Assembly (NCBI GenBank): GCA_043228905.1
Contig: JBHGNT010000011.1
Coordinates: 7,936,001 to 8,000,000, forward strand
Direction: 5' to 3'
From: Azolla caroliniana
Lineage: Eukaryota; Plantae; Polypodiophyta
Length of the DNA: 64,000 bases
Of the stretch, positions 3,972 to 45,517 are shown piece after piece. Each line of letters starts with the position of its first letter. The first letter of the stretch is position 1. The position numbers were made by a program, and so were the translations under genes. The notes below the pieces were generated by a model. That model was not told the DNA's origin, searched no databases, and saw only the letters and a list, made by a program, of their open reading frames with translations.

Positions 3972-3996
3972 TGCTCGTGAAGATTTTTGGCAATAG

Positions 3997-4230
3997 TGTG
4001 AAAATTGCATGGAATGTACACAATCGAGTGTGGTTCTTCACACACAATATGAAACAATAATAATGAAGATATTATTTTATATCTTGCTACGAAAAGATGG
4101 ATGTCTTCAAGAGTGAAAATTGCATGGAATGTACACAATCGAGTGTGGTTCTTCACACACAATATGAAACAATAATAATGAAGATATTATTTTATATCTT
4201 GCTACGAAAAGATGGATGTCTTCAAGAGCT
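3997..4230 (+). repeat. ~115-bp tandem duplication inside LTR B
   Basis: GTGAAAATTGCATGGAATGTACACAATCG...GGATGTCTTCAAGAG occurs twice in tandem; single copy in LTRs A and E. Confidence 0.85.
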
Positions 4231-5268: not shown

Positions 5269-5286
5269 TGGTGAACCCGACGTGAA
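5269..5286 (+). promoter_or_regulatory. Primer-binding site complementary to tRNA-Trp 3' end
   Basis: TGGTGAACCCGACGTGAA is the reverse complement of ...TTCACGTCGGGTTCACCA (plant cytosolic tRNA-Trp 3' end, from memory), 8 nt after the LTR. Confidence 0.8.
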
Positions 5287-9900: not shown

Positions 9901-12599
9901 CGTCGCGACTGACACACGCTTGTTTGGTGCGAGGGTTATAGCACTTATAACCCTTCTGCTCGTCCAAGTAACCGACCAAGATGCATTTCTCCGCCTTTGC
10001 ATCCAGCTTCCTCCTTTTCTCCTTCGGTACATGCACATACGCAATGCTACCGAACACCCTCAAGTTCGGCTTCGTTCCGAAATATAGCTCGTGCGCCGAC
10101 ACTTGGTCTCCGATTCGGTTCTGGATGTATACCGCAGTCCTTACTGCCTCGGCCCACTAGAACTTGGGCAAGCTCTTCTCCTCCAGCATTGCCCGTGCCG
10201 CCTCCACAACTGACCGATTCTTTCTCTCGGCCACGCCTTTCTGCTCTGGCGTGTATCTACAACTGAATTCGCGGCGAATTCCCATTTGTTGTAGGTAACC
10301 GTTGAATTGACCGGAAAAGTACTCTTTCCCGCCATCCGACCGCAGGCACTTGATCTTTCGTCCCGTTTCGGTTTCCACGAACCCTTTGAGGTCCCGAAAA
10401 CAGTCGAAGACTTCGCTCTTCCTCTCAATGAGGTAGATCCATGTGTGCCGCGTGTGGTCGTCAATGAAGGAGATGAAATATCGGCTCCCGCCAAGACTAA
10501 CGTTTTGTGTCGGCCCCCACACATCCGAGTGTATAAGGTCGAGCTTGTTCCGGCTCTGGTTTCGCTCGTTGGGGAAAGGAAGTCGGTGTTGCTTCCCGAG
10601 CTGGCAGGCTTCACAAATTTGTGCCTTTCGGCCACTAAATTTGGGCAATCCGAACACTACCCGTTTCGATTGCAGATCTTGAAGCCGCTGGTAGTTGACG
10701 TGGCCTATCCGTTTGTGCCACAAGTCGATGTCCAAATCGGTCTTTTGTCCCTTCGCGAACATTGCGGTGCTGCTGTCAGTGGAGTCGAGGATGAACATCC
10801 TCCCGTCTCTGCGCCCTTGCGCAATCACACAACCTTCTTCCTCAATGAAGCACCCGAGGTCTGTAAACCGAACCTCCATCCCTTGGTCGACGATCTGTCC
10901 GACCGAGACCAAGTTTTTCGTGATTGGTGGAACGTGCAACACGTTCATGAGTTTCCCTTTCTGCCCAACGTGGCTAAGGGGAACTTCTCCGACATTCGCG
11001 ATCGGATGCGGAGTGTCGTCTCCTGTTGCGACTATTCCAGGTTGTATCGGTTTTTCAAGGTACGAGAACCACTCCTTATGGCTCGTCATGTGGTTTGACG
11101 CGCCGGAGTCTACGTACCACACCTCGTCCGATCTCGGGGTGGTCTGCTTCATTGAGTTTGCTTCGTGTCTCGTCACGAAGGCAGTCCCTTCTCCGGCTCT
11201 CCCGGAGTCTTCGGCGTAGTGCGATCGCTGCCGATTTCCCTTGTCGGTATGTCTAGAGCCGTTCCCGAAACCAGTTCTCTCCGAATCGGCGCGCTTCTTC
11301 CAACACTCACTTTCCTTGTGGCCTTTCTTGCCACAGTACCAGCACTCCGCGATGGACTTCCCTTGCTGGTTCTCATCGTTTCAACTCCCCCTGTTTCCGG
11401 AGGGTCCGGAGTTGCTGTCGGCATCACTTCGGTGCCTTCTTTCTTGATCTCGTCGGCCGCCTCCATTGCGTGCCGACTCGCCTCGTCCTCCACGTCCACG
11501 GGGCCTATCTCCCTCCGTGTACAACATTCTGTTGTCGGTGTGCGTGCTTGTAGACGCACCCACGTGGTTCTCCTCTACCAGGAGCATCGACTATAAGTCG
11601 AAAAAGGACGGCGTATTCTCCCGGGTACACACAGCCGTTCGGAATGCTCCGAACTTCGACGCCAAACCTCCGAGACAGATCTGGACCATCTCGCTCTCCT
11701 CGATGTTCACCTCTATGGAGGCGAGGGAGTCGCAAATATCCTTGATCTTCGAGGTATAGTCCGCCACCGACAAGTCGCGTTGTTGTAGGTTGCTCAACTC
11801 CTGTCGGAGCTGAAGCTTCCTGGTTGTGGTGCTCGCGGCGAAAATCTTCTTCAGATTTTCCCACGCACCCTTCGGCGTCTTTGCATCCCGAACATAGCTC
11901 AATAGCTGTTCACCCACACACGACGCGAAGCAGTATAATACCCTGCTCGCCGATAGCTCCCACGACGGGAAGTCTCTGTGTGTCGATTCGGGTGCCGCGT
12001 CATTAGCTCCTTTGACATAACTCCAGTAGCCGTGCCCGAGCAGGTACTGGTGCATCTTGTAGGACCAAGACGCGTAGTTGGTTCTGTCGAGCTTCTCTGT
12101 TGGAAGCGAGCTCGCCATGCCTCTATCCATTGTTCTTCTTGTTCTTCTTCGTCAAGCTATGTCGGCTGCAGAGAGGTTCTCAACCCTCGCGCTCTGATAC
12201 CATGTAGAAAGTAGCGTGCGGAAGCAAGTATGAAGACCGAACAGAAGGAAGGAAACTCAGGTTCAATGGAGAGCTTAAGCTTACACGGTATACGCAGGAG
12301 AGACAGAGAGAGTGAGAGAGAAGACACAAAAAACTATATTCAACAATAATACTCAATCTCTGTACATAAGACGTGCTCAGTGAGCACTTTTATACAAGTC
12401 CTAGAAGGACTGACCGAAGTACTGACAGTACTTCAATGCTCATCAAGAGCTCCTACACTAACTCCCAAATATATTCCTCACGGAATATCTTTCCTAACGA
12501 CCTCCCGGTTTACGCACTCGGCCTAACCGATCGGTCCCAACCGATCCGGTCCTCGGCTTCTTCAGCCGATCCGGCCGATGTTGAGCTTGTCTCTCAACA
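6962..12599 (-). mobile_element. Full-length young Ty1/copia element (397-bp LTRs 6962-7358 and 12203-12599) with disrupted coding region
   Basis: Perfect TSD ATGTC; tRNA-iMet PBS 12191-12202; PPT 7359-7375; gag (12130 onward), CCHC, PR (VDSGAS), integrase (HSDVWG, SDGGKE, ERKN), RT (YVDD), RNase H; one LTR mismatch seen. Confidence 0.97.
7353..9242 (-). CDS. Copia RT-RNase H portion of pol with a ~160-aa C-terminal extension
   Basis: ORF track 629 aa: [43 protein letters not shown], then acidic and Arg-rich tail ending ELEGEC. Confidence 0.85.
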   Translation of the reverse strand: MYKVKYNTDGSVNRYKARLVAKGYAQKHGIDYDETFAPVAKMTTVRVLLTVAAAKGWHLHQMDVKNAFLQGDLEEQVYMVQPPGFHSGTNSSAICRLKKSLYGLKQAPRAWNAKITQQLRRMGFVTSKLDSSLFIWKGRLRPVSILLYVDDLVITGVDLGEIDRVKLQLAASFDMKDLGDLHYFLGIEVIRTPEGILISQRHYVLGMLFKLGMADCKSVSTPLDRTIKLHPDTGKVCDLTRFRLIVGSLIYLTITRPDLSYPVGVISQFMARPTEEHLQCAQRILRYVNGTKHRGLLYRTGAVAQLVGYTDVDWVGNAADRRSTSGYVFSLGSAVITWSSKKQPTVALSSTEVEYRGAAVATCEAIWLKRLLKDLQEEVSDPTTIYCDNLSSIKLAMNPVFHARTKHIEVHYHFVCERVLSGEVELQYVPTDRQTTNIFTKPLGLDKLRQFSGALGLPHLDVPNLRGRTDQAKQQERSGCRDTESAEEAEGGPTEKSESGQKGSSRRKEPKPTTHRGDDAIEGEKTEDELEIANWDKSENRSGVAESVQMFDSDTLNQPRPKRKKRQQEKRQHRNNRRANKGRMSRQADRKGRSARSRTGRGVRARREARRNRRCEDLEEPRVELEGEC

Positions 12600-13807
12600 A
12601 TGTCCTAACATCGCCATCATGATTGGCGATGTCGAGATAGATCAACATTTTTTTGTTCAAGACTCAGTGTCCCATCCCATCATTCCTGGGCAACCATACA
12701 TAACATCATCATGGACGGAAACCAAAGTGTTCGACAATGGTGCAACATTTGCTTGAGTAAGGAGTCTTGATGGGAAGAAGGCCGTACAATTCTTGATTGT
12801 ACGTGCCAACCATGAAAGGAATCAGGATTGACTCGGAGAAGATGCTTCGAATTTTTATAGCAGAATATTGAAGCATGGGGCACAAATAGTCCAAGCAATC
12901 ACAACTCCCCACAAGAAAGTAGAGCGCATGGATTGCAAGGAGAAGCAACATGTGTCACACCTAGTTCCACATATAAACTAGTGCTACCCAACAAAAAGGA
13001 TAAGCATTGGATGCAAGACTTCGAGAAGATGCTGAAAGAAGAAAACATAATAGAAGAAGAAGAATTCATGACTCATATTATGGAAGAAGCCTCATTTAAC
13101 GACACCATTGGTGAAATCGAGGAAGTCGTGGACTTGAGCTATCTTCACGATCAACATGTGATTTCGGTTAACTCCGTCAACATGTACGCTATCATCGATG
13201 AATACCATCGAAGCATCTTGATGGAGGAAGCTAAAGTCAACACAAAATATAAAACGGTGGAAAGAAAGATCAAGCTAGTTGCGGTTTCACTACCAAAAGA
13301 TAGCTGGCAAAAGATGAAGGAAGTCACTAATGATCCAAGCGTAAGGGATGCAAAGGCAATAGGTCATGTCTTCACCGAAGAGACGAAAAGAAAGCTACGA
13401 GTTGGAAAGGAGGATTTCCACCTCCCTGAAGAGGAGCGAATGTTTTGCAACATGCTTGAGAGACATGGGAAGGCTTTCACATTTTTCCCACAAGAAATCG
13501 GATGTGCTGATCCAAGGATGATAGAACCGATGGTGATCTTCACGGTGCCGCATGTGTCTTGGAAATTGAAACCGATACCGGTTCCGAGAGCACACCTACT
13601 GAAGTTGATCGAACTCTTAAAGGAAAGGGTGGATATGGGAATTTTGGAACCGTCGAATCCTCCCTATTCTAATAGGTGGTTCACGGTGCCAAAGAAGAAT
13701 GGATTATTGCGATTTATCCAAGATCTTCAAACCGTCAACAAGGTGACAATTCGGAATGATGGAATTGGTCCGAGTGTGGATGAATTTGCCGAAGCGTTTG
13801 CGGATCA

Positions 13808-14099
13808 CTAGGAGGCTTAAGACTAGTGTTGAACCGATTTGGTTCGAAATAATGCCTTGTGCCTCCATTTATAGTGTTCTCAGGAGTACTCCTGAAGTTT
13901 CTAGAATGTTCTGGATAAATCTGGAATATACATCAATTTTCTATAGTAAAACTTAAATGATAATAATATCCTTTGTATTACAACATAAGGTTATGGGTCA
14001 AGAGCTCTTGACTAATATACATCTGGAATATATTGATTGGTCAAGAGCTCGACCCATGTAACATAAGGTTATGGGTTCGAGTCTTACCATATCATGGCA
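13808..14099 (-). mobile_element. Partial LTR (5' part) of the chromovirus C family
   Basis: Reverse complement matches the LTRs at 27615 and 44706, including the HSE, TATA and AAATCGGTTCAA. Confidence 0.88.
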
Positions 14100-14297
14100 A
14101 TATGTTCATCAGCTTTCCGTTTTGTCCTACATGGCTTAAAGGGACTTGTCCGACATGCATAATCGGGTGAGGGGCGTCGTCTCCTGTTTCGACAATTCCC
14201 GGTTGTTCTGGTTTCTCTAAAAACGAGAACCACTCTTCGTGTCTCATCATGTGATTAGATGCTCCAAAATCAACGTACCACACTTCCTCCGATCCGG

Positions 14298-27274: not shown

Positions 27275-28448
27275 CTGTGTCGAATTTGGGAGGCTTTGTT
27301 CAGGGTTGGCTACGAACAGTGGTTGGGTGCAACAGACTAGTTCACCCGAATTCGTTCTAACTGAGTTTGAACACACGCCGAATCTGATTCGAAATTCGGG
27401 AGACTCGATCCGAACTAATACAGCTGACTAGCCTAGTCGAGTTGGACCCGAGTATGTCGATTCAATTTCGAATGTCGATTTTCGATATTTCCAAACACAG
27501 AGTATGTGCCAATTATCCAGGTTGATCCTGCTTTAGGTGACTACGACAATGAGAAGAACAGGTTCAGCTAATCTTTCCAAATGTTGTCTAGCCGAATGAA
27601 GCATGGGAGGGGGTTGTCATGATATGGCAAGACTCGAAACCATGAACTTATGTTACATGGGTCGAGCTCTTGACCATTAGACTATATGTTGTAATACAAA
27701 AGATATTATTTTCATTTAAGTTTTACTATAGAAAATTGATGTATATTCTAGATTTCTCTGGAACATTCTAGAAACTTCAAGAGTACTCCTCAGAACACTA
27801 TAAAAGGAGGCACAAGGCATTATTTCGAACCAAATCGGTTCAACACCAATCTTAAGCCTCCTAACTACTATTGTATATTCTCTTAACATAATATATATCT
27901 TTTGTTATCATCATTATCTCTCTCTCACTCACTCATTCTTTCCTTCTCTCAAGAGTTCTACACCTCCCTTAGTACTAATCCTCATCTTTTAGTACTAATT
28001 CCTTCTCTGTCTTAGTATTGTTCCTAATAGTACTTCTCTGTCTTAGTACTGTTCCTAACAATACTTGTCAGAACCAAGGATAAAAGATAGAGTGATGGAA
28101 GAAGGATAGAGAAGAATGGATGTATAAGATAGAGAAAGAAAGAGAATGGATACAAGATATGTAATGAGAGCTAAAGACTAGTGTTGATTCGAATTGATTT
28201 GAGAATACATGTATGCGCTTATTTATAGGTTCCTATAGAATAGCTTAGAGATTTCTAGAATGTTCTAGACCTAGAATGCTCTAGGACATTCTAGAACATT
28301 CTAGAATAATCTAGAGTTTTTACAATAATCAATGTAATACAAGAAGTAGCTTTTATTGTTTCATATAACAATAAGCTATCTTAATGGTTGAGGTTTTCAA
28401 GTATGAATTACAAGGTTCGAGGTTCAAGTCCGGGTGACGCCATAATGG

Positions 28449-31400
28449 TCATGTGTTCATGACACTATCCCTCCTTCGAGAACGCCGAGTGGAAGTCGGC
28501 GTTAACATTGTTGGGCCGGGCTTGTTTGGATAGTGACGATGGAAGTCGTTGACCAGAGCTTCAGCATTACAAACGTTATCGATGGGTTCCCAAGTGCAAT
28601 CACTCGGAGGATAACCAAGCCAATCAACTAGATAATAAAGCTTATTGCGCACAATCTTAGAATCGAGAATAGCAGCTACCTCGTATTCGGGGCCGTCCAC
28701 AAGTTGTACAGAAGGCGGTGGTGGCACGACACGATCAGGAATTAAAGAGGTGTGGCAAGGTTCCAAAAGAGAGCTATGAAAGACAGGGTGAAGCCGCATA
28801 TGTGCAGGAAGGTTAAGACGAAATGTTGCATCATTAATCTGCGCCGTGATGACAAAAGGACCTAAGCGTTGATAGTCAAGCTTAGCACACGGTCGGGTAG
28901 TCTTGATGTGACGACGAAGCAACCATACACGGTCACCAACCTTAAACGGAGACTTAAGACGATGTCGATCGGCATTGGTCTTATGGTGTGCTTGTGCTTT
29001 CTGAAGATGTGACGATAACTCGAACTGGATTTGTTGTAGTCGGTGGAGGTGATGCGCCGCACTAGGGTTTCGTGACACCTCGGGAAGATCCAGTATACAC
29101 CATCGAGGGTGGTTGCCGGTGTAGGCAAAGAAAGGTGTAACTTTGGTAGAAGAGTGGACCGTGTTGTTGTATGCAAACTCAGCAAGATGTAAAATTTTAC
29201 TCCAATCATCTTGTTGATAACTAATGAAACATCGAAGATATTGCTCGAGCGTTTGATTTGTGCGCTCTGTTTGTCCGTCAGTTTGTGGATGATAAGCCGA
29301 AGAGAGTTTGCAAGAGATTTTGAGGCCTGCCCATAGGTGCTTCCAAAAGTGTGAGATAAATTGAGGACCTCGATCACTAATAATATCATTCGGGAGACCA
29401 TGATGGTGAAACACTTCACGCATAATGAGATCTGCAGTTTCTTCACTATTGATGGTCTTTACACATGGTACAAAATGTGCCATCTTGGTGAACCGATCCA
29501 CTACTGTTAAAATAGTATCAAAGCCTTTGGAAGGTGGCAGATCCGTAATGAAATCCATAGAAATAGACTGCCATGGCTTGTTGGGAGGGGGTAATGGTTG
29601 TAGTAAGCCATAAGGGTGATGCCGGGGTATTTTGGCGCGACAGCAGGTGTCACAAGTGCGAACATAATCTTCGACAAATTTTTGCAAGTGAGGCCACCAA
29701 AATGAACGTTTCACCAGCTCAATGGTCTTGGAAATACCAAAATGTCCAGCCATGGGGGCATCATGACAATGTTCCAACACTTGAAATCGGGGTGATCCGT
29801 CGGGGAAGTAAAGGAGATTCTTGTAGAAGAGTAAACCATCTTGCCACTTGAAGTCCTTATAATGTTGAGATGACCCTGGCAATGTGGAGCAAGATGGACG
29901 ACTTGAACCACAGTGGGCTAAGACATCCTTAGCAAAATCATCCGAATGAAGTTGTTGCCGAATAGTGTCAAGAAGGGTAGAATCAAGTGGTGTGGCATAA
30001 ATTGTTATTACCTGTAGCTTTGATGGCCCGAGGAGAGTTTGCTTTTGATTGTCAAAGGTCGGATCTCCAGGTCGAAGTGCTAGATACAAACGCCGAGACA
30101 GAGCATCTGCTTTCCCTTGTTGTTTTCCGGGGCGAAAAATGATCTTGAAATCGAAACGCGTTAGAAATTGGGCCCACCGAGCTTGTCGTCTATTTAATAC
30201 TCGAGCTGTTTGAAAATATGTGAGATTTTTGTGATCACTATAAATGATAATCTGATGAGGTGAGCCTTCTAGAAAATGACGCCATTGCTCGAATGAGTCG
30301 ACCACAGCTAGTAACTCCTTGTCATGCACCTCATAGTTTATCTCCAAAACAGTAAACTTTCTCGAGTGAAACGCGACTGGATGTATCTGCCCGTCCTCAC
30401 CTGGTTGCGATAGGATACTCCCCAATGCAAAGTCTGATGCATCCGCCTCAATAGTAAATGGCTTTTCAGGATCAATATGTGCTAGGATGGGTGCTGATGT
30501 GAATGCCTCTTTTAGCTGCGTAAAAGCCTTGTCTGCTTCGATACTCCAAAAAAATGCTTGATTTTTCTTTGTGAGTTGAGTAAGGGGCAACACAATGCTT
30601 GAATAATTATGTATGAATTTGCATAGAAGTTCGCAAATCCGAGGAAACACTGGACATCCCGAACTGAGCATGGGGGTTTCCATTCCAATATTGTTTGGAC
30701 TTTTGCCGGGTCCATGAAAACACCCCGGGATGAAATAGTGTATCCCAAAAATTCGACTTGTTTGCAATCAAAACTGCATTTCTCAAGTTTGGCGTAAAGA
30801 CCATACTTCCTTAGGCGTTCAAGTACTTGCCGCACATGTATATCATGCTCCCCCTGTGTTTTAGAGTAAATCAATAGATCATCTAGGTAGATGATTAGAA
30901 AAATATCCAAGAAATCCCGGAAGATGTCATTTGCCATATGTTGGAATACGGCAGGTGCATTTGTGAGCCCGAAAGGCATGACTGTATACTCGAAATGACC
31001 ATACCGAGTACGAAATGCTGTTTTCCACTCATCTCCTGGCCGAATTCGAACAAGATTATATGCACCCCTTAGATCAATTTTGGTAAAATGCTTTGCCCCA
31101 CCAATGCGTTCTAAGAGATTGGAGATTAAAGGTAAAGCATACCTATTCCTTATGGTGACTTTATTTAAGCCTTGATAGTCCACGACCAAACGAAGGGAGC
31201 CATCCTTTTTCTTCACAAAAAAGATAGGAGCACCAGCTGGAGACTTTGAATGTCGAATAAACCCATGTGCAAGATTTTCCTCGATGTATTCTCGAAGAAC
31301 CTCAAGCTCAGTGGGTGATAAATTGTAAATCGGACCCCACGGAGGCTCTTTTCCTGGTTGGAGATCAATAGGACAGTCGTACGGCCGATGCTTTGGAAGA

Positions 31401-32110
31401 ACACTAGCTTTGACTTTGTCGAAAACATCAGCATAGTCTTGATATTTTTTGGGAATTTGGATGTCTGAATTCCCTTGAGTGACACTAGAAGGTGTCACTG
31501 ATACTGCAAATAAGAAAAGGTCCTCCTTGCCTCCCACTTGGTGCAATTATTGCAATGTGATGGCTGAAATTTGATGAGAAGGATATGGTGCATCGGTAGA
31601 ACTATATACTTTGGGAGGATAATCCCGAGTTCGATCCTTGACAATGATATTTTCTGCTAAAGGGCACCTAATTTCTCGCTTCCTCCAATCGATTCTAGGG
31701 TTATGTAGCTCGAACCATGGCAAACCGAGGACAATTGGATGCTCAGGACTACGGATTATGTTAAAGGAAACTACACATCCTAAATCACCCAAGAGTATGT
31801 GTATTGGCTCAGACTCTTCAAATATCTTCCCGGAAGCTATGGGGCGTCCATCAATCACTACTACGGAAACTGGACAAGGAAGTGTATGCAAGGATATTTG
31901 GTGTTTTTGGGCAAAATCTCTATCCATGAAACAAGAATTGGCTCCAGTATCTAAGAGGGCTTGGACTTGAAGTTGACAACTGGGTTTCCTACCTTGTACT
32001 AGGGCTGAGAAGACTCTACTAACATGCTTGGAAGAAATGGAACCCACACCAGGTTGTACATATCTAGGGTTGTCCAACCAAATGGCTCCTATTTTGGCCA
32101 GACTTATTCG
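28449..32110 (-). pseudogene. Pol of element D (PR-RT-RH-INT-chromodomain) with one premature stop (31547) and one frameshift (~30620)
   Basis: ORFs 31547..32077, 30512..31546 and 28449..30767. Confidence 0.9.
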
Positions 32111-33272
32111 TTTGACTCCTCTTCTAATTGGCTTAGGACTTCAAATTTATTGGACAAGGGTGGATTATTCATAATATTAGATTCACTAACTACTTCTAAA
32201 ATATTGGACTCATTTTTATTGTCATAGTGAATTTGATTTACCTGACGTCTCGGCCTACGGGAGCAATGAATGGCTATATGTCCTGGACCTCCACAATATA
32301 AGCACAAATGGTTTGCTCGACGACGTTGCTTCTCTTCGTCTGACAACGGTCCTCGTCGTTGAGTCATATCGATCTCCATGGGTGTAGGACTATCCATTGG
32401 GACTGGACTACGTGTTTGCCTTGGAGTTGGAGCAGGGCTATACATTTGCCTTGGGGATGATTGCGCCGTTACTGATGCATAAGTTGGTGTGAATCTAGAT
32501 CTTGTTATTTGTTGTTGTCGCTCACATCGACGCTCAAAAAGGCGATTATCACACCGTATTGCTCGACTAATAGCTTCTGTAAGTGACCTTGGATCCTCGG
32601 GGAAGGTAAGAAGTAAGTCTTTGACATCACTACGAAGGCCTGAACGGAATTGCTCCATTAGGGCTTGTTCATCCCAAGGAATATCGCTTGCGATGAGACG
32701 GAAATTGGCGGCATATGTTGAAGCTGGTTGATCACCTTGACGAAGTGTACGAATCTTGTTGATAGCTGTTCTCACCCCATCAGTATCTCCGAAACAAGCC
32801 TTAAATTCCTTGATAAATTCCTCGAAATTATTTAGTAGAGGAGAATTGGTCTCTAGCAATGGAGAAAACCACGACAACGCTATGCCAGTCAATAAAGTGC
32901 CCACTAGCCCGACTCGTGATGCATCTGTTGGATAACGTGCGGGATGCATTTGAATCACCAACCGTACTTGATTCAAAAAACCTCGGAAATGCGCCCTCGA
33001 CCCATCAAATTTAGCTGGGAAGCTAATTTTGGGCTCCTTGATAAGTCCATGACCTTCAACCCTTTGTTGTTGTAACATGACGATTGTCGACTCTAACTGT
33101 TCCACTCGTCGCGTGAACTCCTCTTGTTGTTGTTGCTTCTCTATAGTAACCTTTTGTAGATCCCCAAGTAGACGTTGATTCTCTACTTCAAGAGATGCGA
33201 ACTTGGATTTAAGGTTCTCCATTTCTGCAACAAGGGTGAGATATTCTTCTGAGTTAATGGCAGCCATGGTTT
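32104..33272 (-). CDS. Gag of element D (coiled coil, retrotransposon gag core, CCHC)
   Basis: MAAINSEEY...EPKISFPAKFDG...PMEID...CLYCGGPGHIAIHC; open frame; start coordinate approximate. Confidence 0.88.
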
Positions 33273-33292
33273 CAGGATGGTTATAAAGGAGG

Positions 33293-33335
<43 letters not shown>

Positions 33336-34430
33336 AATCAAACTGTCAGAACCAAGGATAAAAGATAGAGTGATGGAAGAAGGATAGAGAAGAATGGATG
33401 TATAAGATAGAGAAAGAAAGAGAATGGATACAAGATATGTAATGAGAGCTAAAGACTGGTGTTGATTCGAATTGATTTGAGAATACATGTATGCGCTTAT
33501 TTATAGGTTCCTATAGAATAGCTTAGAGATTTCTAGAATGTTCTAGACCTAGAATGCTCTAGGACATTCTAGAACATTCTAGAATAATCTAGAGTTTTTA
33601 CGATAATCAATGTAATACAAGAAGTAGCTTTTATTGTTTCATATAATAATAAGCTATCTTAATGGTTGAGGTTTTCAAGTATGAATTACAAGGTTCGAGG
33701 TTCAAGTCCGGGTGACGCCATAATGGTCATGTGTTCATGACAATACTTCTCTGTCATAGTACTGTTCCTAACAGTTTGAACCGATTTTCTCCTTCCTTCT
33801 CTTCCTTTATCTTCTTAATTCCCACTCCCTTCATACTAATATCTTATTCCTCTTTTCTCTCATATTATGGCCATTGTTAGCGCTCAAGAATATCAATATG
33901 TTTTTTCGGAGTTGCAATGCTTGAAAGAGAAGCTTCTCGCATTGGAACAAGAAAATCAATGACTGTTGGGGGAGCTTCAACAAATATCCTTAGAGAAGCA
34001 GCAAACGCAACAACATGGGGAACTAGCGTTACACGTGCAACAACACGAAGGAACCATACTCGTGATGCAACAACAAGGACCTAGTATGCAAGGGGTTCAT
34101 AAAGAACCCAAGATTGGCCTTCCCATGAAATTCGATGCAACACAATCACAGTTTAGAGGATTTCTTAATCAAGTACGATTAGTCATTCAAATGCATACTT
34201 CCCGATATCCCACCGATGCATCATGAGTGGGTTTAGTAGGCACGTTGTTAAGTGGCTCAACTTTGGCATGGTTCGCTCTCGTTGTTAGAAAAGGAATCTA
34301 CTTTACTAAACAATTTTGAAGAGTTTTTAAGTGAGTTTAAAGCCTGTTTTAGAGATACTGATAGCATAAGGACAACAATCAACAAAATCCGACGATTACA
34401 TCAAGGTAATCGTCCAGCCTCCGCATACGC

Positions 34431-37400
34431 TGTCGTGAAGATTTTCGGCGATAGTGTGTAAATTGTGAGGAACATACAAAATCGAGTGTGGTTCTTCTCA
34501 CAAGATATGAAACAATAATAGTGAAGATACTATTCTAAATAAGTTTAATATCTTGGTACTAAAAGATGGAGGTTTTCAAGAGCTTTCTAATGCACTTTAC
34601 TACATAAGAAACGGACAAATAAGTGTCAAGTTATGTGGGTATAAACATTGCAAAGAAGAAGAGAAAAACAAAATTGTGAGATATCCCACATAGACAAGAC
34701 AAATAAGGATCCCAGAGTATATAAGAAGACCAAAATCTCATATTATATCTATGTGTTTGGAGCATAGAAAGATTGAGTTGTATGACTTGATGAGTGGATG
34801 CAGCCAGCCAAGTTCATTGGTTTTGGACAAATCCGAACGGATCCAGACCAGCAGACAGAAGGCGACGGAACCAGAACCGGATCAGGCTACAGACTAGACG
34901 GATGCGGATCGGATGGACCGGACGGGTAGATTTAGTGTAATATGCACTTAAACATTTGTAAAAACAAGACTAAAAATATTTGGAGGTCAACTGAATTTCG
35001 GGAGAGGGGGAATGAAAAAACCCATGGAAGATGTTAAGGCGACTGATGTGGATGCGATGCACTATGCTGCATTAGCCAAAATAAGAGTCAGGAAAGACAA
35101 AATTGAAGTTGCTAGACCATGAGCAAAGTTGTGGTCTACCGTTCTCGAGTATGAGAACAAGGGAAAGGTCACTTCGAACAAGGTCAAGCTTGCAGACCAA
35201 AGTGTGTAAAGCATAACTGGATGGTCGGATCCTGTGGATGACAACACCATACTCGTGGAAGTGATGTGTGACAACCACAAGGTGTTCGTGGATGAAAAGA
35301 GAAAAAGAATGGAAGGGTAAGGCAACCCATCAAAAAGACATGAAGGAAGGAGCACGAAAAAGAAAGAAGATGCAGAAACGAGTCGAGCTTTACAAACGGA
35401 GGGAGACTCAAGTCGAAAAGGGGAGTCGAGCAAACGAGTCGAGGAAACAGTTCGGCCCGTGAAGGTTGGTGTCAAAGACCCCACTTGGAAGACAAGAATT
35501 ATGCCTACCTATAAGCTAAGATCGAACATAGAGCAAATGACAGATCTGAAGAAGATTCTCGAGGAACGTGTTCTCGATAGCCACGTGACCTTGTCCTTGA
35601 GGGAATTGCTCGGCATTACGAAGGAGTTCCATGATACGATCGTGGACCTTGCGAAGAGAAAAAGGCAATAGTCGGACGAGGAAGAAGAAAAGCCGTTAAA
35701 AGCAAAAACAAATGTCATAACGATGGCAAGGGACGAAGTCGATGAAGATTTGGTGGACAGCCACTATACTCGACCTCATTGGGCACGAGTGACAATGGAG
35801 ACGCCGGTGAAGATCGGGGAGAAGAAAGAGACCATGGTAGCCTTAATCGACCATCGCTCGGAGATCAACCTCATGTTGACTGAGTTCTACAAAAAAGGAA
35901 GATGGCCAATTAACACAAACCACGGATGGAAGATTCGAGCGGCAACAAAAACCACAGAGGACTTGTACGGAGCTTGTCCAAATGTTAAAGTCACGATTCG
36001 GGATGTGAAGATGGATCAACACTTCTTCGTGCAAGAATTGGCTTCGCATCCTGTCATCCTAGGACAACCGTATATCACATCATCTTGGATGGAGACCAAG
36101 GTGTTCGATAATGGAGCAGCCTTCGCACGGATCAAGAGTCTTGACAACCAAAGATCTGTTCAATTCCTAACGGTGTGGGCTAATCATGAAAGAAATCGAG
36201 ATACCCTTCGAGGCGACTCCTCAGATTTTTAGAGTGGACTATTGAAGCTTGGGGCACAAATAGTCCTAGCAATCACAAGTCCCCACAAGAAATTGAAGCG
36301 CGTGGATTGCAAGGAGAAGCAACATGTGTCACACCTAGTGGCGCATGTAAACTAGTACTACCCAACAAGGACAAGCATTGGATACAAGACTTCGAGAAGA
36401 TGCTGAAAGAAGAAAACATAATCAAAGAAGAAGAATTCGTGACTTGTATTATGGAACAGGCCTCATTTAACGACACCATTGGCGAAATCGAGGAAGTCGT
36501 GGACTTAAGCTATCTTCACGATCAACACATGATTTCGATTTACTTCGTCAACATGTACGCTATAATTGATGAATATCATCGAGGCATCTTGATGGAGGAA
36601 GTTGGAGTCAACACAAAATATAAAACGGTGGATAGAAAGATGAAGCCAGTTGCAATTCCGCTACCAAAAGATAGTTGGCAAAAAATGAAGGAAGTCGCTA
36701 ATGATCCAAGCCTAAGGGATCCAAAGACAATAGGTCATGTCTTCACCAAAGAGACGAAAAGAAAGCTAGGAGTTGGGAAGGAGGATTTCCTCCTCCCTAA
36801 AGAGGAGCGAATGTTCCGTGGAATGCTTGAAAGACATGGGAAGGCTTTTGCATTTTTCCCACAAGAAATCGGATGTGCTGATCCAAGGATGATAGAACCA
36901 ATGGTGATCTTCACGGTGCCGCACCTACCTTGGAATTTGAAACCGAAACCGGTTCCGAGAGCACACCTACCGAAGTTGATCGAGCTCTTAAAGGAGAAGG
37001 TGGATCTGGGAATTTTGGAACCATCGAATGCTCCCTATTCTAATAGGTGGTTCACGGTGTCGAAGAAGAATGATCATTGCGATTCATCCAAGATCTTCAA
37101 CCCGTCAACAAGGTGACAATTTGGAATGTTGGAATCGGTCCAAGTGTGGATGAATTTGCCGAAGCGTTTGTGGGCTAGTCTATCTACTCCATTGGCGATC
37201 TCTACTCTGGATACAATCAATTCCAGTTGGTGGTCGACAATCGTCACATTACAACTATGAGGACTCCGATCGGGCTTGTGCGGATGTGTACCTTACCTCA
37301 AGGTGCAACGAACTCGTTGGCTCATATGGTGAATGCCATGAACAAGGTCTTGAAGGATTGCATCCCGGGCATCACGATGCCATTCTTGGATGATATTCCA

Positions 37401-40400
37401 ATAAAAGGATGTTCGGATGAGGACAAGGATGAATCGAAAGATAAGGAAGGGTGTAGAAAGTTCGTCGTGGATCATAGGAAAGATTGCGAGAAGGTGCTCC
37501 AAAGACTCGAAGATGCAAATTTGACATTTTCAGGAGAAAATTCTGCATTTGGGCAACCAGAGATCTTGGTGGTAGGCCACTTGTGTGGAGCATACGGCCA
37601 GAAGCCTTCGCCATCCAAGGTGAACGTGATCCAGGACATGAAAGAAGAATGCCTAACCCAAATGGAGGTTTGAAGGTTCCTTCGAGCATGCGCGTTTTAT
37701 CATATCTAGATTCTGCACTACGCTCATGTCGCCGGGCCATTATATGGATTGCTAAAGAAAAGAATGAAGTTCGAATGGTGAGACGAGCATACAAACGCGA
37801 CGCGAAGATTAAAGAAACTACTTCTTGAAGCCCCAACACTAAGGAAGGCTGACTATACCGAAGGGAAGCCGATTTATGTGACTCTAGATACGAGCCCAAC
37901 TGGAATTGGGTGGGTCATTAACCAAGAAGGAGAAGATAATGTGTGGTATGCCATCTGGTTAGAAGCAAAGGTTCTCAGGGAGCGACAACAAAGATACGCC
38001 CAAGTCAAGCGGGAACTTTGGGGTATTGTGTCTGCAATGAAGATGGACAAAGACTACCTGATCGGGTCGGAAGTGATAATTGAAACAGATTGTCTCCCAA
38101 TCCTCGGGATGATCTCAGGATGTGCGACACCAGATCTAGCTATGCTAAGGTGGATCGCCTATATCAAGTCTTTAAACCCAGAGATCCGCCATATTGCAGG
38201 AAAGAAGAACGTCATGGTTGACGCGTTGTCGAGGGCAAGATTTGAGAATGAAAGTGACATGTTTTCGGAAGATGAAGACGTCACCCTCGACTTCTTCAAG
38301 ATGGCTCGACTATTGGCGGAAGACAAGGACACGCTAACCCTCTACGCCTTCAACGAGGACGAGGACGAAGGAGAGTGGTTAGTGATCGGCAGATTCTTAA
38401 GAACAATGACGGTGGATGTTTCGTTGACGAAAGAGGAGGCTCTACGAATATGGAAGAAAGCTTACCAATACTTCCTCAAGGGAGGATCCCTCTGGTGACA
38501 CCCAAAAAGAAGGACAAGAATGCCACGTTGAGTGGTGGTGAAGAAAGAAGAGCAAGTGACGCTGATGACCGAATTCCACGAGAGTCCTTGGGCGGGTTAT
38601 AGAGGATCATGGGCGACGTTCGAAAAGTTGAAGGAAAAGTACTGGTGGCCAAGCATGTACAAAGATGTACTCCATTTCGTGTCCACATGCGAAACTTGCC
38701 AAGTACATTCGAACATACGTCATCGTGATGAGTTACGGTCAACATACCCGCTCACCATACACTTCAAATGGATGGTGGATCTGGTCTCGACAATGGTAGT
38801 GGGATAAATGAAGTATTTAGTACTAGCAAGAGAAGACCTGACAAATCAAGTGGAAGGACGAGCCTTGGCAAATAAGACGACGTCAGCTGTTTGGAAATTT
38901 CTACTCGAAGAGGTTGTCTACCGATACGGATGTGTCGGAAAGATAGTGATTGATCGAGGGGAGTTGGATGCACGCGAAGCAATAGAGCTCTTCGATCAAC
39001 TAGGCGTGAAGCTCTCCCTCACAACTACCTACAATCCAGAAACGAATGGGAAGATCAAGTGAGGGCATGGACCAATCGTCAAAGCAATTGTACGACCATG
39101 CAACGGTCGAGTCGGGAACTAGCCACGACTATTGCCCTATCCCTTGTGGGCCGATAGAACTACACACAGTTCAATGACAGGGTATATGCCAACAGAGCTT
39201 ATGTATGGACAGAAGCCGGTAATGCCCATCGAAAGGACGATCGCCTCATGGGTAGCGATACCATGGGAGAACGAGATGAGTCGAGAAGAATTATTAGCGC
39301 CACGGATAAGGCAAGTTGAAAGGAGACCTGAAGATCTAGAAAAAGCATGAAAGATGATGGAGGTAGCTTGAGTGAAGAACAAAATTTGGTTCGACAAGAT
39401 GCATCGACTGTGTCCCAAGAAGATTGAAGAAGGAGATTGGGTATTGGACTACGATAGCAGCCTTGACAATCAACACATGACAACAAGGAAGTTCGCAAGA
39501 AGATGGTTCGGACCGTATGTGGTGACAAGTGCCAACGACAATGCCACATACCACCTTGCGGAGCTAGACGGATCAAGGTTGGCCGTGCCCATTGCAGGCA
39601 AAAGAGCTACATTCGGGACTCGAAGACGCCGAAGGATGCTTGGGGAAATTTGAAAAACATTTTCGTCGCAAGCACCACAGCCAGAAAGCTCCAACCCATG
39701 CAAGAGTTGAGCAATGTTCGACAACGAGATATGTATATGGCTGATTACACCTCCAAGCTCAAGGACATTTGCGACTCTCTCACCTCCGTCGATGTAAACC
39801 TCGAGGAGGACGAAATGGTGTAGGTCTGCCTTGGAGGCTTATCGTCGAAATTTGGAGCTTTCCGAACTACTGTCTATACAAGGGAGAATAAAGATTTTCA
39901 AGAAAAGACGAGACGAGGATCCTGACCTCGACCACCTCGACGATGAAGATAGTAGGACTGAGCCTACAGACTTGAGTTATGTGAACAAGGACATGGAGGA
40001 ATTTGATTGATCATCATAGCCGAAATCTCACACTCTCTCCTCTTGGCACATGCCGAAGGACATGCGGTTTGGTGGGGGTGGATGTCGTGAATATTTTCGG
40101 CGATAGTGTGTAAATTGGTTTTGGACTAATCTGGACGGAACCGGTGACCAGATGGCAACGAAACCGGATGGCGACCGGACAGCTACGGAACCGGATCGGG
40201 AAGCAGACTGGACGGAACCGGCTTGGGTTGCGGACCGGAACTGGAATGACTTGACAAATGGATGTAGCCAAGTTCATTGGTTTTGGACAAATATGGACGG
40301 AACCGGACTGACGGACCGACGGAAGGCGACGGTACCAGATTGGGATGCAGACCAGACGAAACCAACTCGGGTTGTGGACCGAAACCGGGTCGGAATGAGG

Positions 40401-41119
40401 GCCAGAAGGAACCAGATGACATGTGGACCCGGGCCGGATCGAACGGATTGGACAGGATGGGACGGATGTGGATCGGATGGACCGGACGAATAGATTTATC
40501 GCAATGCACGATGTCTTGAAGTTTTCCAGTGTGAAACGAACAAAATCATCTAGTTCTTTGGAGGTCAAGTGAAGGTGTAATCTGCACTTAAACATTTGTA
40601 AAAACAAGACTAAAAAGCCTAGTAAAAAGAAAATTTGTATACAAAGGGGTGCAAGTAAGAATTTGAACCTTGCACCTCCAAGTTGAAAGTCAATAGGCTT
40701 ATCACTAAGCCAAGTCATATCTGCAAAAGTTTTACTTTGATCATTTTACATGAAAATTCTCATACATGAGAGCTTAGATGATGACATGGCAAACATGCAT
40801 TTTGTGCATTACGTACATGTCTTGCACCCTCACATGCACCATATGCATGGGGGCATCTATAAAACAGTGGAGGAATAAAGCAGGAGAAACTAATGAAAAA
40901 TTTGGGAAAAATAAGAAACTTGTTATGCTATTGTTGATGTATCTTGTCTCTCAAATCTAAAGTTAAGCATTTAATCTCTTTCTCCATATCAATCTCTCTC
41001 TATTTCAATCTATCTTAAATACTTTCTTGGTAAAGCTAGTGCAAACTTTGAATCCTTCCGGTCCAAAACCCCGGTGATTCCGCCTCACGATCCGCACGTA
41101 GTGACGGATCTTCACGACA
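34431..41119 (+). mobile_element. Gypsy element E (tRNA-Trp family): truncated 5' LTR 34431-~34990, gag C-term, PR, RT (FLDD), RH, INT, 3' LTR 40083-41119
   Basis: TGTCGTGAA...TTCACGACA; TSD ACGC/ATGC restores host gag PASAYAANF; LPQGATNS..PFLDD; IVIDRGEL; WFGPY; no chromodomain. Confidence 0.93.
39607..39889 (+). other. Captured copia gag fragment inside the integrase tail of E
   Basis: YIRDSKTPKDAWGNLKNIFVAST..KLKDICDSL..CLGGLSSKFGAFRT; no LTR or TSD. Confidence 0.85.
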
Positions 41120-44100
41120 ATGCTGCAAATTTTCGCCTACTCGCCTCCAAAATCCCCTGGGATGACCAAGCACTTATGGAGCAATTTCGTTATGGTCTAC
41201 ATAACAATGTTAAGGATTTACTCTTGACCTTCCCCGAAGAACCAAAGTCATTGACAGAAGCAATTCGTTGCGCGGTGAGATGCGAAAACCGTCTTTTCGA
41301 ATGACATTCGGAACATCAGTTCCAGATGCCAGGGCAAGATCAGAGCCCACCTACACCTCAGTGGTAGCAAAAACTTTTCCAAGGGTGTCATATAATGCAA
41401 AAACTTTAGTGAATACTCCAACTCCGATGGAAATTGACACTACACATCGTCGCGGTCCATTATCGGAAGAAGAAAAGCAGCGACACCGAGCAAATTGACT
41501 ATGTCTTTATTGAGGTGGACCAGGGCATATTGCAGTGAATTGTCTCCATAGGCCAAGAAGACAGGTGAACCAAATAGTTGCTAGTTCTAATTGTACTAAA
41601 CCTAAGTCTATTTCAGTAGGAATATCCGATAGTCCTAATAGTACTAATAGCCCAAATCTCTCGAACAAATTTGATGTCCTTAGTTAGTTAGAAGAAGAGT
41701 TAATCGCCTAAGTCCAACCAAAATAGGAGTCATTTGGTTGGACAGCCCTAGATCTGTGCAACCCATTAGTGGTTTCATTCTCTCCAAGCAAGTTAGCAAT
41801 GTGTTCTTAGCCCACGTAACAGTTAGTACTAAAAGTACCTCTCTAGTACATGTCTCAACACTCCTAGATTCTAGAGCTAATTCTTGCTTCATGGATAGGA
41901 ATTTTGCCAAAGTTCATTAGATATCCCTAAGAAAATTCCCATGTCCAGCCTCTGTAGTAGTCATTGATGGTCGTCCCATTGCTTTCAGAAATATCATAGA
42001 AGAGTCGGAGCCCGTTAATATTTTCCTAGATAATTTTTTGTGTGTAGTATCCTTTAATATAATTAGTATCCTAGAACATCCCATTGTTTTGGGATTACCA
42101 TGGTTCGAATTACATAACCCAGTTATAGATTAGAGAACAAGGGAAATCCGGCATCGACAAACCCGAGGATCTACTCATAAGATTGCAACCATTTCGCTAC
42201 ATCAGTTGCGTGAGGAAGGACACAAGGAAGAAATGTTTCTCTTCGCAGTATCAGTAAAACCCTCCAACACCACTAAAGAGGAGTCCATCGTTCAACTTCC
42301 AGAGAAGTATCGTCATTATGCCAATGTGTTCGATAAAGAAAAAGCCAATACGCTTCCTCACCATCGCCCGTATGATTGCCCCATCGATTTACAACCGAGA
42401 AAAGAGCCACCATGGGGATCGACTAGGAGACACCATTCGCACCAGATATGGGCACTTCAAGTATACGGTCATGTCATTCGGCCTCACTAATGCACTAACA
42501 GTCTTCCAGCACATGGCAAATGATATATTCCGAGATCTCTTGGATGTTTGTTTGATAATCTATTTGGATGATCTACCAGTTTATTCGAAGACCCAAGAAG
42601 AGCATGATTCTCATGTACTGTTAGTACTAAAACGACTTCGAGAACATGGTCTTTATGCAAAGCTGGAATAATGTAGTTTCGGGTGCAACCAGGTAGAATT
42701 TATGCACTATATCATTTCCTCGGAAGGCATCTCCATGGATCCAGCTAAGGTCAAAACAGGGGTAGAGTGGCAGACCCTGCGTTCGTTGCGAGATGTGCAA
42801 TGCTTTTTAGGCTTGCCAATTGCTACCACAAGTTTATATAGTATTACTCAAAGCTTGTTCTGCCTCTCACACAACTCACCAGGAAGGCACAATCGTTCGT
42901 TTGGTCTAAATAAGTAGACATGGCTTTTGAGAATCTTAAGAAGGCATTTACATCAGCTCCTATTCTTGCTCATGTTGATCCGGAAAAACCATTCATCATC
43001 GAAGCAGACACGTCGGATTTCGCGTTGGGTAGCATTCTGTCACAACAAGGCGATGATGAAAAGCTTCATCCTGTGGCTTTCCACTCACACAAGTTTGACG
43101 TCGCCGAAATCAACTATGAAATTCATGGTAAGGAGCTATTCGCAATAGTGGGCTCTTTTACACAATGGATGCATTTTCTAGAGGGGTCTTCTCATCAAGT
43201 CACCGTATTCAGTGATCACAAAAACCTTGCCTACTTTCAAAATGCTCATGTGTTAAATCGATGTCAAGCTTGGTGGGCCCAATTCCTCACTCGTTTCGAC
43301 TTCAAAATTACATATTGTCCGGGGAAGCAACAAGGGAAGGTAGATGCATTATCACGATGCTCGTATCTAGCACCGCGTCTTGGCGAGCCAGCTTTCGATA
43401 ACCAAAAGTAAGTAATCCTGGGACCAGCATGACTGCAAGCAACACAGGTCTTCGGTATGCCCTTGGATTCCCACGTTATCGATACCATACGTGAGGACTT
43501 GAAGATAGATGCTTTCGCCCAAGCCATTCTAGCACAAATTGATCCCTCTCAAGCATCTTGTTCACAGTCGCAACAACCAAGTACGGACTATCGACAATTT
43601 GAATGTCATGATGGATTACTATTCTTTAAGAAACTCTTGTATGTTCCTAATGGTTCTTGTCATCTTCGAGTAGTCCAAAACTGTCATCACACATATACAG
43701 CTAGGCATTTTGGTAGTACTAAAACATTAGATTTAGTACAACGATCATTCTGGTGGCCCCATATGCGACAATTTGTCGAAGGTTTTGTTCGGACTTGAAA
43801 TTCATCTCGAAATTCTAGAAGCACCTCTTTAAAATGCTCAAGGTCACTTGTAACCTCTCCTCCCGCCACCACCCGCTACCACCCGCAAACAGACGGCCAA
43901 GCAGAACGAACAAATCAAACGTTGGAGCAGTATCTTCAGTGCTTTCTAAGCTATCATCAAGATAACTAGGCGGATATTCTCCACTTTGCTAAATTTGTGT
44001 ATAATAACTCTGTCCACTCATCGACAAAGGTTACACCATTTTATGCTTATACGGGTTGTCACCCACGGTGGTGTGTATTTGAAACCCTTGAGTTACCCAC

Positions 44101-45001
44101 AAATCCTTGCACAGAGGATCGTTTGGAGCGGTTACGCAAGATACAAGCAGATTTATTTACTGATCTACAGCAAGCTCAACAAATACACAACGTTTACGCG
44201 GATCGTCATCGGCTTCCATCTAGTTTTAACATTGGAGATCAGGTATGGCTACTACGACGACACATCAAGACTACTCGCCCATGTAAGAAGTTGGATTATC
44301 GGCGATTAGGTCCGTTCCGTATTATCGGAAAAATTAATGATGTCACTTTTCATCTCGATCTACCTCCACAACTTCAAATACATCCGGTGTTTCATAGTTC
44401 TCTCCTCAAACACTATCAAGATAGCACCATCCCAAGTCGTATTAAACAACCTCCACCCCCGATCGAACTTGAAGATGGACCTGAGTACGAGGTTGCCGCC
44501 ATCCTCGATTCCAAGATTGTTCGCAAGAATCTCTACTATTTAGTCGATTGGCTAGGATATAGTCCCAACGAGCGTACTTGGGAACCAATAGAGAATGTGA
44601 CCAATGCTCGTGCTCTTCTTGAAGACTTCCATCGTCAATATCCAAACAAACCGGGTCCTCAATCCAAAACGACTCGTGACACTCGTCGTTTTAAAGGGGG
44701 GATAGTGTCATGATATGGCAAAACTCGAACCCATGACCTTATGTTACATGGGTCAAGCTCTTGACCATTAGAATATATGTTACAATACAAAGGATATTAT
44801 TTTCATTTAAATTTTACTATAGAAAATTGATGTATATTCCAGATTTCTCTAGAACATTCTAGAAACTTCAGGAACTCTCCTGAGAACACTATAAAAGGAG
44901 GCACAAGGCATTATTTCGAACCAAATCGGTTCAACGCCGGTCTTAAGCCTCCTAGCTACTATTGTATATTCTCTTAACATAATATATATCTTTTGTTATC
45001 A

Positions 45002-45061
<60 letters not shown>

Positions 45062-45517
45062 ACTCACTCACTCTTTCCTTTTCTCGAGAGTTCTACACCT
45101 CCCTTAGTACTAATCCTCATCTTTTACTACTAATTCCTTCTCTGTCTTAGTATTGTTCCTGATAGGGATTGTTCATGGAGCCTAGACTACTACGAGTGAT
45201 TACGACGAGTGATTGACTAGCGTCAGGTGACCTACTCGATTGTTGTCTAATCCAATGTAGTACGGCTAAGGCAGAGCTTGTGAAGCGAAATCTCACTCCG
45301 AGTGGCTACAATCACAGGAGTGAAGTGCAGCTGATTGGCTCACTTCAATGGTGATTTAGAACATGGAGTGCAGATTTTGCTTGTGTTTCTCTTCGCGAAA
45401 AACGATCTTGTAGAAGGTTGCCAACCGAGATCTTCATGGTGTACAAAAGAAGAGTTGTTGATGGAGGTAAAGTAGACAACGACAGCAGAATCGAGAGAAC
45501 CAAGCTTTGATACCAGA

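What the first reader, a model, noticed from the sequence alone, without database searches (positions are those of the whole stretch)
27799..33787. tRNA-independent self-priming in two plant chromoviruses, with co-variation
Seen: neither C nor D has a TGG-type tRNA PBS. In C, GT+TTGAACCGATTT (33776-33787) after the 5' LTR is the exact 12-nt complement of AAATCGGTTCAA (27832-27843), which starts 33 nt after the TATA start (27799). In D (minus strand), GT+TTGATTTGAAT (33341-33331) pairs with ATTCGAATCAA (33472-33462; 10 Watson-Crick pairs plus 1 G-U), also 33 nt after its TATA start (33505). The sequences differ but geometry and complementarity are the same. Known: S. pombe Tf1 primes from the first 11 nt of its own RNA after RNase H cleavage. 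Inference: these plant Tcn1-like elements do the same.
Basis: partly seen in the sequence, partly recalled or inferred. Interest (0 to 1): 0.85.

Follow-up and report, generated by a model that had tools for sequence, protein, structure and literature searches.

The report
Self-priming Tcn1-type retrotransposons, already predicted
Two nested jumping genes carry, where a tRNA would normally dock, 12 letters that pair with their own end-repeat, and relatives keep this pairing with different letters, so they likely start copying themselves with the front of their own RNA, a trick shown in yeast Tf1 and already predicted in print for this group of elements.

Summary
C (+, 27615-45164) and D (-, 28066-33742, inserted in C's 5' LTR) are Ty3/gypsy chromoviruses without a TGG primer site. 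After LTR-CA+GT, each has a 12-nt PBS complementary to its own LTR. One correction: D's duplex is 12 bp (11 Watson-Crick, 1 G-U) and starts 32, not 33, nt after TATA. In 79 related metagenome loci, 40 of the 45 with both sites recognisable keep an unbroken 10-12-bp duplex, in 12 different fully Watson-Crick versions. A Gag tree gives 22 double (compensatory) changes. The duplex begins at C|A in 41 of 43 rows and 32-33 nt after TATA in 36 of 43, as a transcript start would. Tf1-like self-priming is the best reading (0.88). The start site and RNase H cut were not measured, and Tf1's third duplex was not found. The idea is not new: Neumann et al. 2019 predicted self-priming for 83% of 1500 plant Tcn1 elements, and this scan noted it before in two other genomes (moss or probably moss). 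The co-variation and start-site geometry add support. Host plant and Tcn1 membership by phylogeny remain unproven.

The parts
27615..28065 (+). Element C, 5' LTR, left piece (U3-R-U5 up to D's insertion; ends in D's target duplication ATACT, 28061-28065)
   Evidence: Aligns with C's 3' LTR, 20 mismatches in the first 301 nt; flanks GGGGT/GGGAT
27799..27804 (+). C TATA box
   Evidence: Sequence; same spacing in relatives
27832..27843 (+). C predicted self-primer (predicted first 12 nt of the RNA)
   Evidence: Exact complement of the PBS; C|A at its 5' edge, 33 nt after TATA
28066..33742 (-). Element D, 5677 nt, young chromovirus inserted in C's U5
   Evidence: 5-bp target duplication ATACT; 399-nt LTRs with 3 mismatches; Pfam Gag, PR, RT, RH, INT, SH3, Chromo
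28066..28464 (-). D 3' LTR (second copy of the primer sequence at 28195-28184)
28465..28480 (-). D polypurine tract
   Evidence: Purine-rich run abutting the 3' LTR
28449..32140 (-). D pol (PR-RT-RH-INT-chromodomain) in three pieces: a stop between PR and RT at about 31547 and a change of frame between RT and RH
   Evidence: chromodomain Y/W/Y aligned to the aromatic cage of CDY proteins
32104..33267 (-). D gag, open frame, overlapping the protease frame by 37 nt
33330..33341 (-). D PBS, 12 nt, no TGG
   Evidence: Follows LTR-end CA + GT (33343-33342); pairs with 33473-33462
33342..33347 (-). U5 end and GT spacer of D; predicted short R-U5 helix with 33460-33454
   Evidence: MFE folds; five pairs kept in 37-41 of 41 rows
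33344..33742 (-). D 5' LTR
33462..33473 (-). D predicted self-primer, 12 nt
   Evidence: 11 WC + 1 G-U with the PBS; C|A edge; 32 nt after TATA
33500..33505 (-). D TATA box
33743..33773 (+). Element C, 5' LTR, right piece (end of U5, ends in CA)
33776..33787 (+). C PBS, 12 nt, no TGG
33867..44671 (+). C internal region: decayed gag (split by a 6.7-kb insertion at 34431-41119) and pol with chromodomain
   Evidence: tblastn with D proteins, 54-72% identity; Pfam SH3 + Chromo
44706..45164 (+). C 3' LTR (primer copy at 44923-44934), preceded by a polypurine tract

Best explanation
C and D are Ty3/gypsy chromoviruses whose primer-binding site is complementary to 12 nt of their own LTR, and they likely prime reverse transcription with the first 12 nt of their own RNA, as Tf1 does. 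Shown: the elements, the absence of TGG, the duplex, its co-variation, and its fixed place behind TATA. Inferred steps: (1) transcription starts at the A of a C|A step 32-33 nt after TATA; (2) the 5' 12 nt fold onto the PBS, followed by an unpaired invariant C and a short interrupted R-U5 helix; (3) the element's RNase H cuts after the primer's 3' CAA; (4) RT extends through the GT spacer into U5; (5) the PBS is probably re-copied from the primer in each cycle, which would explain why the two sites change together.
For: Window: exact 12-mer, 0.01 expected by chance in 64 kb; cross-element and Copia controls reach only 9 and 7 of 12. Relatives (79 loci): 40 of 45 loci with both sites recognisable keep an unbroken 10-12-bp duplex, in 12 different all-WC versions. 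On alignment A2, 8 of 12 pairs show changes on both sides; the covariation score is 0.346 against 0.139 in shuffles (0 of 500) and at most 0.144 when slid. Parsimony on a 41-row Gag tree gives 22 WC-to-WC double changes. Pairing falls from 38-46 of 46 rows at positions 1-12 to 4-5 of 46 at positions 13-14. The 5' edge is C|A in 41 of 43 rows, and TATA lies 32 or 33 nt upstream in 36 of 43. Predicted duplex probability is 0.85-0.97 in intact rows. Literature: Tf1 mechanism (PMC7175516); plant Tcn1 predicted to self-prime (PMC6317226).
Against: No start site, cleavage or primer was observed; only contigs were available. Five of 45 loci have a broken duplex (L023, L031, L049, L066, L077). Tf1's three-duplex structure is only partly matched: family-specific pairing of the distal R-U5 arm (p=0.16) and a third duplex 3' of the PBS (p=0.13) were not significant over 22 lineages. 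The short R-U5 helix involves the conserved LTR end, which may be conserved for integrase instead. One contig joins U5-PBS to sequence upstream of the predicted start, which a primer cut from the RNA 5' end would not contain. Most loci come from one series of repeat-collapsing assemblies, so they are not independent samples. Novikova 2010 saw no self-priming evidence in SM-Tcn1.
Confidence: 0.88

Rival explanations
1. The same 12 nt prime reverse transcription, but not as the cut 5' end of the same RNA. The primer comes from the second RNA in the particle, from the 3'-LTR copy of R, or from a longer transcript cut on both sides.
For: One 201-nt contig of run X3 reads U5-GT-PBS and then the reverse complement of C's LTR upstream of the primer (tables 7-8), as a U3-extended primer would give. 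The third duplex of Tf1 was not found.
Against: The duplex stops sharply at a C|A step at a fixed distance from TATA, which an internal primer does not need. In several families U3 folds over the primer and would hide it in any RNA that includes U3. The join is a single contig of depth 3.5, absent from the 79 loci and the window (41 queries, 0 hits), and can be a library template switch.
Confidence: 0.07
2. A host tRNA or tRNA fragment primes, and the LTR match is incidental. The primers resemble a tRNA T-loop or B-box (consensus recalled, not from a call).
For: C's 27837-27847 fits the recalled B-box consensus. The host tRNA set could not be searched (no genome; no tRNA in the window).
Against: There is no TGG, so no mature tRNA 3' end can pair. 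The PBS differs between close families and follows the LTR at 8 of 12 pairs. The B-box-like match is absent at the same site in D, and 3 of its 5 window hits lie elsewhere. Rfam found no tRNA-like RNA in 27500-34000.
Confidence: 0.02
3. The duplex is real but serves RNA folding (packaging, dimerisation, translation control), and priming uses something else.
For: Co-variation shows pairing, not priming. Other priming modes without LTR complementarity are proposed for Skipper elements (PMC5006619).
Against: The 3' arm begins exactly 2 nt after the LTR's CA in every family, the place where minus-strand synthesis must start. No other primer site is visible.
Confidence: 0.03

Closest known systems
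Plant Tcn1-clade chromoviruses (REXdb; Neumann et al. 2019, PMC6317226: passages, Additional file 5 read whole)
   Same: No tRNA PBS, with an LTR segment complementary to 10 or more nt starting 0-5 nt after the 5' LTR (83% of 1500 elements); 5-bp TSD; size within 5466-9444 (D is 5677); gag overlapping pol; chromodomain with aromatic cage.
   Different: In the passages read, that study only scored complementarity by blastn; I saw no co-variation, start-site geometry or flanking helices there. Its element list (Additional file 1) was too large to read and may hold these families. Placement in the clade by a tree with named references was not tested here.
Tf1/Tf2 of Schizosaccharomyces pombe and the Tf1/sushi group, including Tj1 and Tosmo1-3 (passages: PMC7175516; 10.1101/2022.12.06.519325; PMC4600332)
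   Same: Chromovirus; PBS complementary to an LTR segment at the predicted RNA 5' end; a second helix between R just after the primer and the sequence just before the PBS is possible.
   Different: The primer is 12 nt here (10-11 in distant relatives) against 11 in Tf1. The third duplex of the 'pretzel' was not detected. Cleavage by RNase H is shown only for Tf1. The primary Levin papers were not held, so they are cited second hand.
TAR-lineage Ty1/copia elements (Houba, Osr-1), PMC6317226
   Same: Plant LTR elements predicted to self-prime (89% of 203).
   Different: Copia domain order, no chromodomain; unrelated lineage.

Membership tests
Tf1-type self-priming elements | No tRNA-type PBS after the 5' LTR | tested here: met
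   CA+GT+TTG in C and D, no TGG; six TGG-type sites elsewhere in the window as a control. Host tRNA fragments could not be searched.
Tf1-type self-priming elements | PBS complementary to a segment of the element's own LTR, kept across families | tested here: met
   12/12 in C, 11 WC + 1 G-U in D; 40 of 45 loci; 22 double changes
Tf1-type self-priming elements | That segment is the 5' end of the RNA | tested here: inconclusive
   C|A edge in 41 of 43 rows and TATA at 32-33 nt in 36 of 43; only contigs were available, no start mapped
Tf1-type self-priming elements | RNase H of the element cuts the primer free | not testable with these tools
   RNase H domain present; cleavage needs an experiment
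Tf1-type self-priming elements | Three-duplex 'pretzel' around the PBS | tested here: inconclusive
   Five proximal R-U5 pairs kept in 37-41 of 41 rows, one column pair with a change on both sides; distal arm p=0.16, third duplex p=0.13
Tcn1 clade of chromoviruses | RT-RH-INT phylogeny groups with Tcn1 / Tf1-sushi references | not tested
   No named Tcn1 reference came back. The nearest named relatives are fungal or algal: Cetraspora Gag 52%, Powellomyces Pol 50%, Closterium 42%
Tcn1 clade of chromoviruses | Group I chromodomain with aromatic cage | tested here: met
   Y, W, Y align with the cage of CDY chromodomains; definition from PMC3350952 passages
Tcn1 clade of chromoviruses | 5-bp TSD, 5.5-9.4 kb, gag overlapping pol in another frame | tested here: met
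   D: ATACT/ATACT, 5677 nt, 37-nt overlap; ranges
Tcn1 clade of chromoviruses | Host is a moss or club-moss | tested here: inconclusive
   No genome or host name. Plant-type Copia and DUF659 lie nearby; a nested Gypsy has a 4-bp NCGN-like TSD as listed for moss Phygy. These are hints only.

The most novel reading that the evidence does not exclude
This lineage runs a stripped-down self-priming switch: a 10-12-nt primer that always ends in CAA, an invariant unpaired C that marks the cut, and only one short flanking helix instead of Tf1's three-duplex pretzel. In some families a U3-R hairpin (up to 11 bp) hides the second primer copy at the RNA's 3' end. The PBS is rewritten from the primer in every cycle, so primer and PBS drift together as a family-specific code.
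Probability: 0.25. Interest if true: 0.5.

Novelty: new member of a known kind. Interest (0 to 1): 0.27.

Why it matters
Self-priming is proven only in fission-yeast Tf1. For plant Tcn1 elements it is a prediction from complementarity, and one earlier paper found no evidence for it in a Selaginella member. The co-variation, the sharp 5' edge and the fixed TATA distance strengthen the prediction and give exact positions for the start site and the cut, which makes a 5' RACE or in vitro test simple. It also explains why tRNA-based PBS finders miss these elements. It does not open a new kind of mechanism.

Tried and rejected
No host genome is held, so no genome-wide family alignment or host tRNA search was possible. 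IMG/VR gave no relative (8 pattern hits, 0 confirmed). The run search listed no RNA holder on record, and all 4 runs were contigs; laying them showed no molecule starts. My first fold-back search was wrong: its query was just the antisense LTR, so its 190 hits are void. The corrected search found 0 joins with 41 queries. One search did not list the X3 join, but its tables were cut (12 joints and 304 loose ends not shown). An alternative 9-nt register for D's PBS, 10 nt upstream, is weaker (-8.8 against -10.4 kcal/mol) and is not kept in close relatives, so it was rejected. A family-specific distal R-U5 arm and a third duplex were not supported. The B-box resemblance was rejected as chance. Rfam gave only one sub-threshold hit. 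Host naming through Gag, Pol, cluster members, DUF659 and the Atlas failed. Four primary Tf1 papers were not held. The literature search returned unrelated papers. The careful tree did not finish, so the quick tree was used. MAFFT put four distant rows one column out of register in A2, so miscounts those rows; one search uses registers anchored on the primer's 3' end.
Full report
Anatomy. The window is a nest of LTR retrotransposons. Element C runs on the plus strand from 27615 to 45164, with flanks GGGGT/GGGAT; its LTRs differ at 20 of the first 301 nt, so it is old. Element D lies on the minus strand at 28066-33742 inside C's U5, with a perfect ATACT duplication and 399-nt LTRs that differ at 3 places. 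D encodes Gag, protease, RT, RNase H, integrase, SH3 and a chromodomain. Gag is open and overlaps the protease frame by 37 nt; pol is interrupted twice. The chromodomain keeps the three aromatic cage residues. C's proteins are 54-72% identical to D's, and its gag is split by a further insertion.

Observation. After C's LTR end (CA) come GT and 12 nt that are the exact complement of 27832-27843, 33 nt after the TATA start. That 12-mer is expected 0.01 times in the shuffled window and is found four times: three LTR copies and the PBS. That pair is Watson-Crick in D's close relatives such as L001. Each PBS finds at most 9 of 12 pairs in the other element's LTR. A Copia neighbour with a TGG-type site finds 7 of 12 in its own LTR.

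Relatives. A Gag alignment (39 of the 237 proteins in hand or found) was used to scan metagenome contigs: 328 stretches encode a relative, and the best 80 gave 79 loci. I defined the PBS without using complementarity, as a CA-RY-TTG motif upstream of gag. Twenty of 79 loci lacked it, mostly because the contig ends or the region is replaced, and two hits (L025, L051) were not the PBS; 57 remained. In 12 of these the start of R is missing, because the contig ends or joins other DNA, often at a (CT)n tract. Of the other 45, 40 keep an unbroken duplex of 10-12 bp and 5 are broken by one or more mismatches (L023, L031, L049, L066, L077). There are 12 different all-Watson-Crick primer/PBS versions. 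Most loci come from one series of assemblies that collapse repeats, and their hosts are unnamed, so they count as families, not as independent samples.

Co-variation. On 33 rows (D plus 32 of the 40 loci with a 5' LTR; near-duplicates and L071 left out), 8 of the 12 pairs show changes on both sides. The score for the 18-pair structure is 0.346, against 0.139 for shuffles (0 of 500 as high) and at most 0.144 for slid partners. Shuffles ignore kinship, so I also counted events on a Gag tree of 41 rows (quick method; C, L010, L036, L043, L053 left out). Parsimony gave 22 Watson-Crick to Watson-Crick double changes, 4 other double changes, 10 single changes to a pair, 4 to G-U and 6 breaks. The last three primer bases (CAA) never vary. 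A host tRNA would hold the PBS fixed; a PBS that follows the LTR is what pairing, or copying of the PBS from the primer, predicts (inference).

Is the primer the RNA's 5' end? This was not measured. The run search gave only contigs and no holder on record as RNA. Indirect signs agree. Pairing drops from 38-46 of 46 rows at positions 1-12 to 4-5 of 46 at positions 13-14 (the anchor motif fixes positions 1-3, and three rows later dropped are included). The edge is C|A in 41 of 43 rows. TATA lies 32 nt upstream in 24 rows, 33 in 12, 35 in 1, 40 in 2, and was not found in 4. That a pyrimidine|A step about 30 nt after TATA marks a polymerase II start is general knowledge, recalled.

Flanking structure. 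Tf1 needs three duplexes (10.1101/2022.12.06.519325, passages). Here the folds repeatedly show the primer duplex, one unpaired C, two pairs, a small loop and three more pairs between R and the U5 end. These five pairs are kept in 41, 40, 37, 41 and 41 of 41 rows, with A-U/G-U and C-G/U-A/U-G variation. The U5 side is also the integrase end, so part of this conservation has another possible cause. A family-specific distal arm (p=0.16) and a third duplex 3' of the PBS (p=0.13) were not supported over 22 lineages.

A contrary or ambiguous record. One contig of run X3 joins C-family U5 and PBS to the reverse complement of the LTR upstream of the primer. It shows that the two sites can meet, but it contains U3, which a primer cut from the RNA 5' end would lack. 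A template switch during library making, or priming by a U3-containing molecule, would both explain it. No such join exists in the 79 loci or the window, and one search did not list it in its cut tables.

Mechanism. Best reading (0.88): Tf1-like self-priming. Shown are the duplex, its position and its co-variation. Inferred are the start at the C|A step, the RNase H cut after nt 12, extension through GT into U5, and re-copying of the PBS from the primer. In Tf1 the first 11 bases pair with the PBS and RNase H cuts between bases 11 and 12 (PMC7175516, passages). Rivals: the same sequence priming from another RNA copy (0.07), a structural role only (0.03), tRNA priming (0.02).

Comparison with what is known. 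Neumann et al. 2019 (PMC6317226; passages, Additional file 5) predicted self-priming for 83% of 1500 Tcn1 elements from mosses and club-mosses, by the same criterion. Their Additional files 1 and 3 were too large to read and may list these families. Novikova et al. 2010 (PMC2864245; abstract and passages) found neither tRNA nor self-priming evidence in SM-Tcn1. Searches returned no experimental test and no co-variation study for plant Tcn1 in the listings I saw; most subscription journals are not covered. This scan reported the same layout in two other genomes, moss or probably moss (unchecked AI notes, not counted as evidence). C and D work like Tf1 by inference, and they fit Tcn1 in structure, but clade membership by phylogeny and the host were not established.

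Verdict. New member of a known kind; interest 0.27. The added value is the co-variation and the exact positions for a test.

Noticed in passing
run X3 record 19 laid on window 33748-33787: A 201-nt contig reads C-family U5 + GT + PBS and continues with the reverse complement of window 27831-27802 (30 of 71 loose letters shown). It is a fold-back exactly through the primer/PBS duplex; 12 nt is too short for an assembly join. Single contig, depth 3.5, run type only guessed as RNA.
   Followed up: partly
window 27820-27847; L011, L017, L028 and others: U3 just upstream of the primer is an inverted repeat of the primer in several families (5 bp in C, 9 in L011, 11 in L017; none in D, L001, L076). 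It would hide the primer in RNAs that include U3, such as the 3' LTR copy.
   Followed up: partly
window 28005-28065 and 33743-33773 versus 45135-45164: C's 5' LTR has three copies of a roughly 31-nt U5 end unit, the 3' LTR only one. D inserted between copies two and three.
   Followed up: no
window 34431-41119: A 6.7-kb Gypsy element distant from C and D (22-25% identity to D's Pol) splits C's gag. Its flanks ACGC/ATGC look like the 4-bp NCGN duplication listed for moss Phygy elements. Related pieces lie near 2311-6917 and 12617-13803.
   Followed up: partly
window 13809-14103 (-): Truncated third C-family LTR with an intact primer copy (13840-13829), broken shortly after it.
   Followed up: no
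window 6962-12599 (-) and sites at 18125, 19860, 45515, 48292, 62923: Several Copia elements or remnants with TGG-type primer sites; the one at 6962-12599 has LTRs 99.7% alike.
   Followed up: partly
L019, L023, L066: The primer of L023 is the exact complement of the PBS of L019 and L066, while L023 and L066 are mismatched within themselves; these may be mosaic contigs or decayed copies of a further primer type.
   Followed up: no
L068, L075, L079: In this distant clade the predicted R-U5 helix is 7-9 bp long and its distal letters differ between loci while still pairing, the clearest hint of a second Tf1-like duplex.
   Followed up: partly
window 53391-53897 (-): DUF659 fragment; its one longer homolog also carries a hAT dimerisation domain, so it is probably a DNA transposon remnant.
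   Followed up: partly
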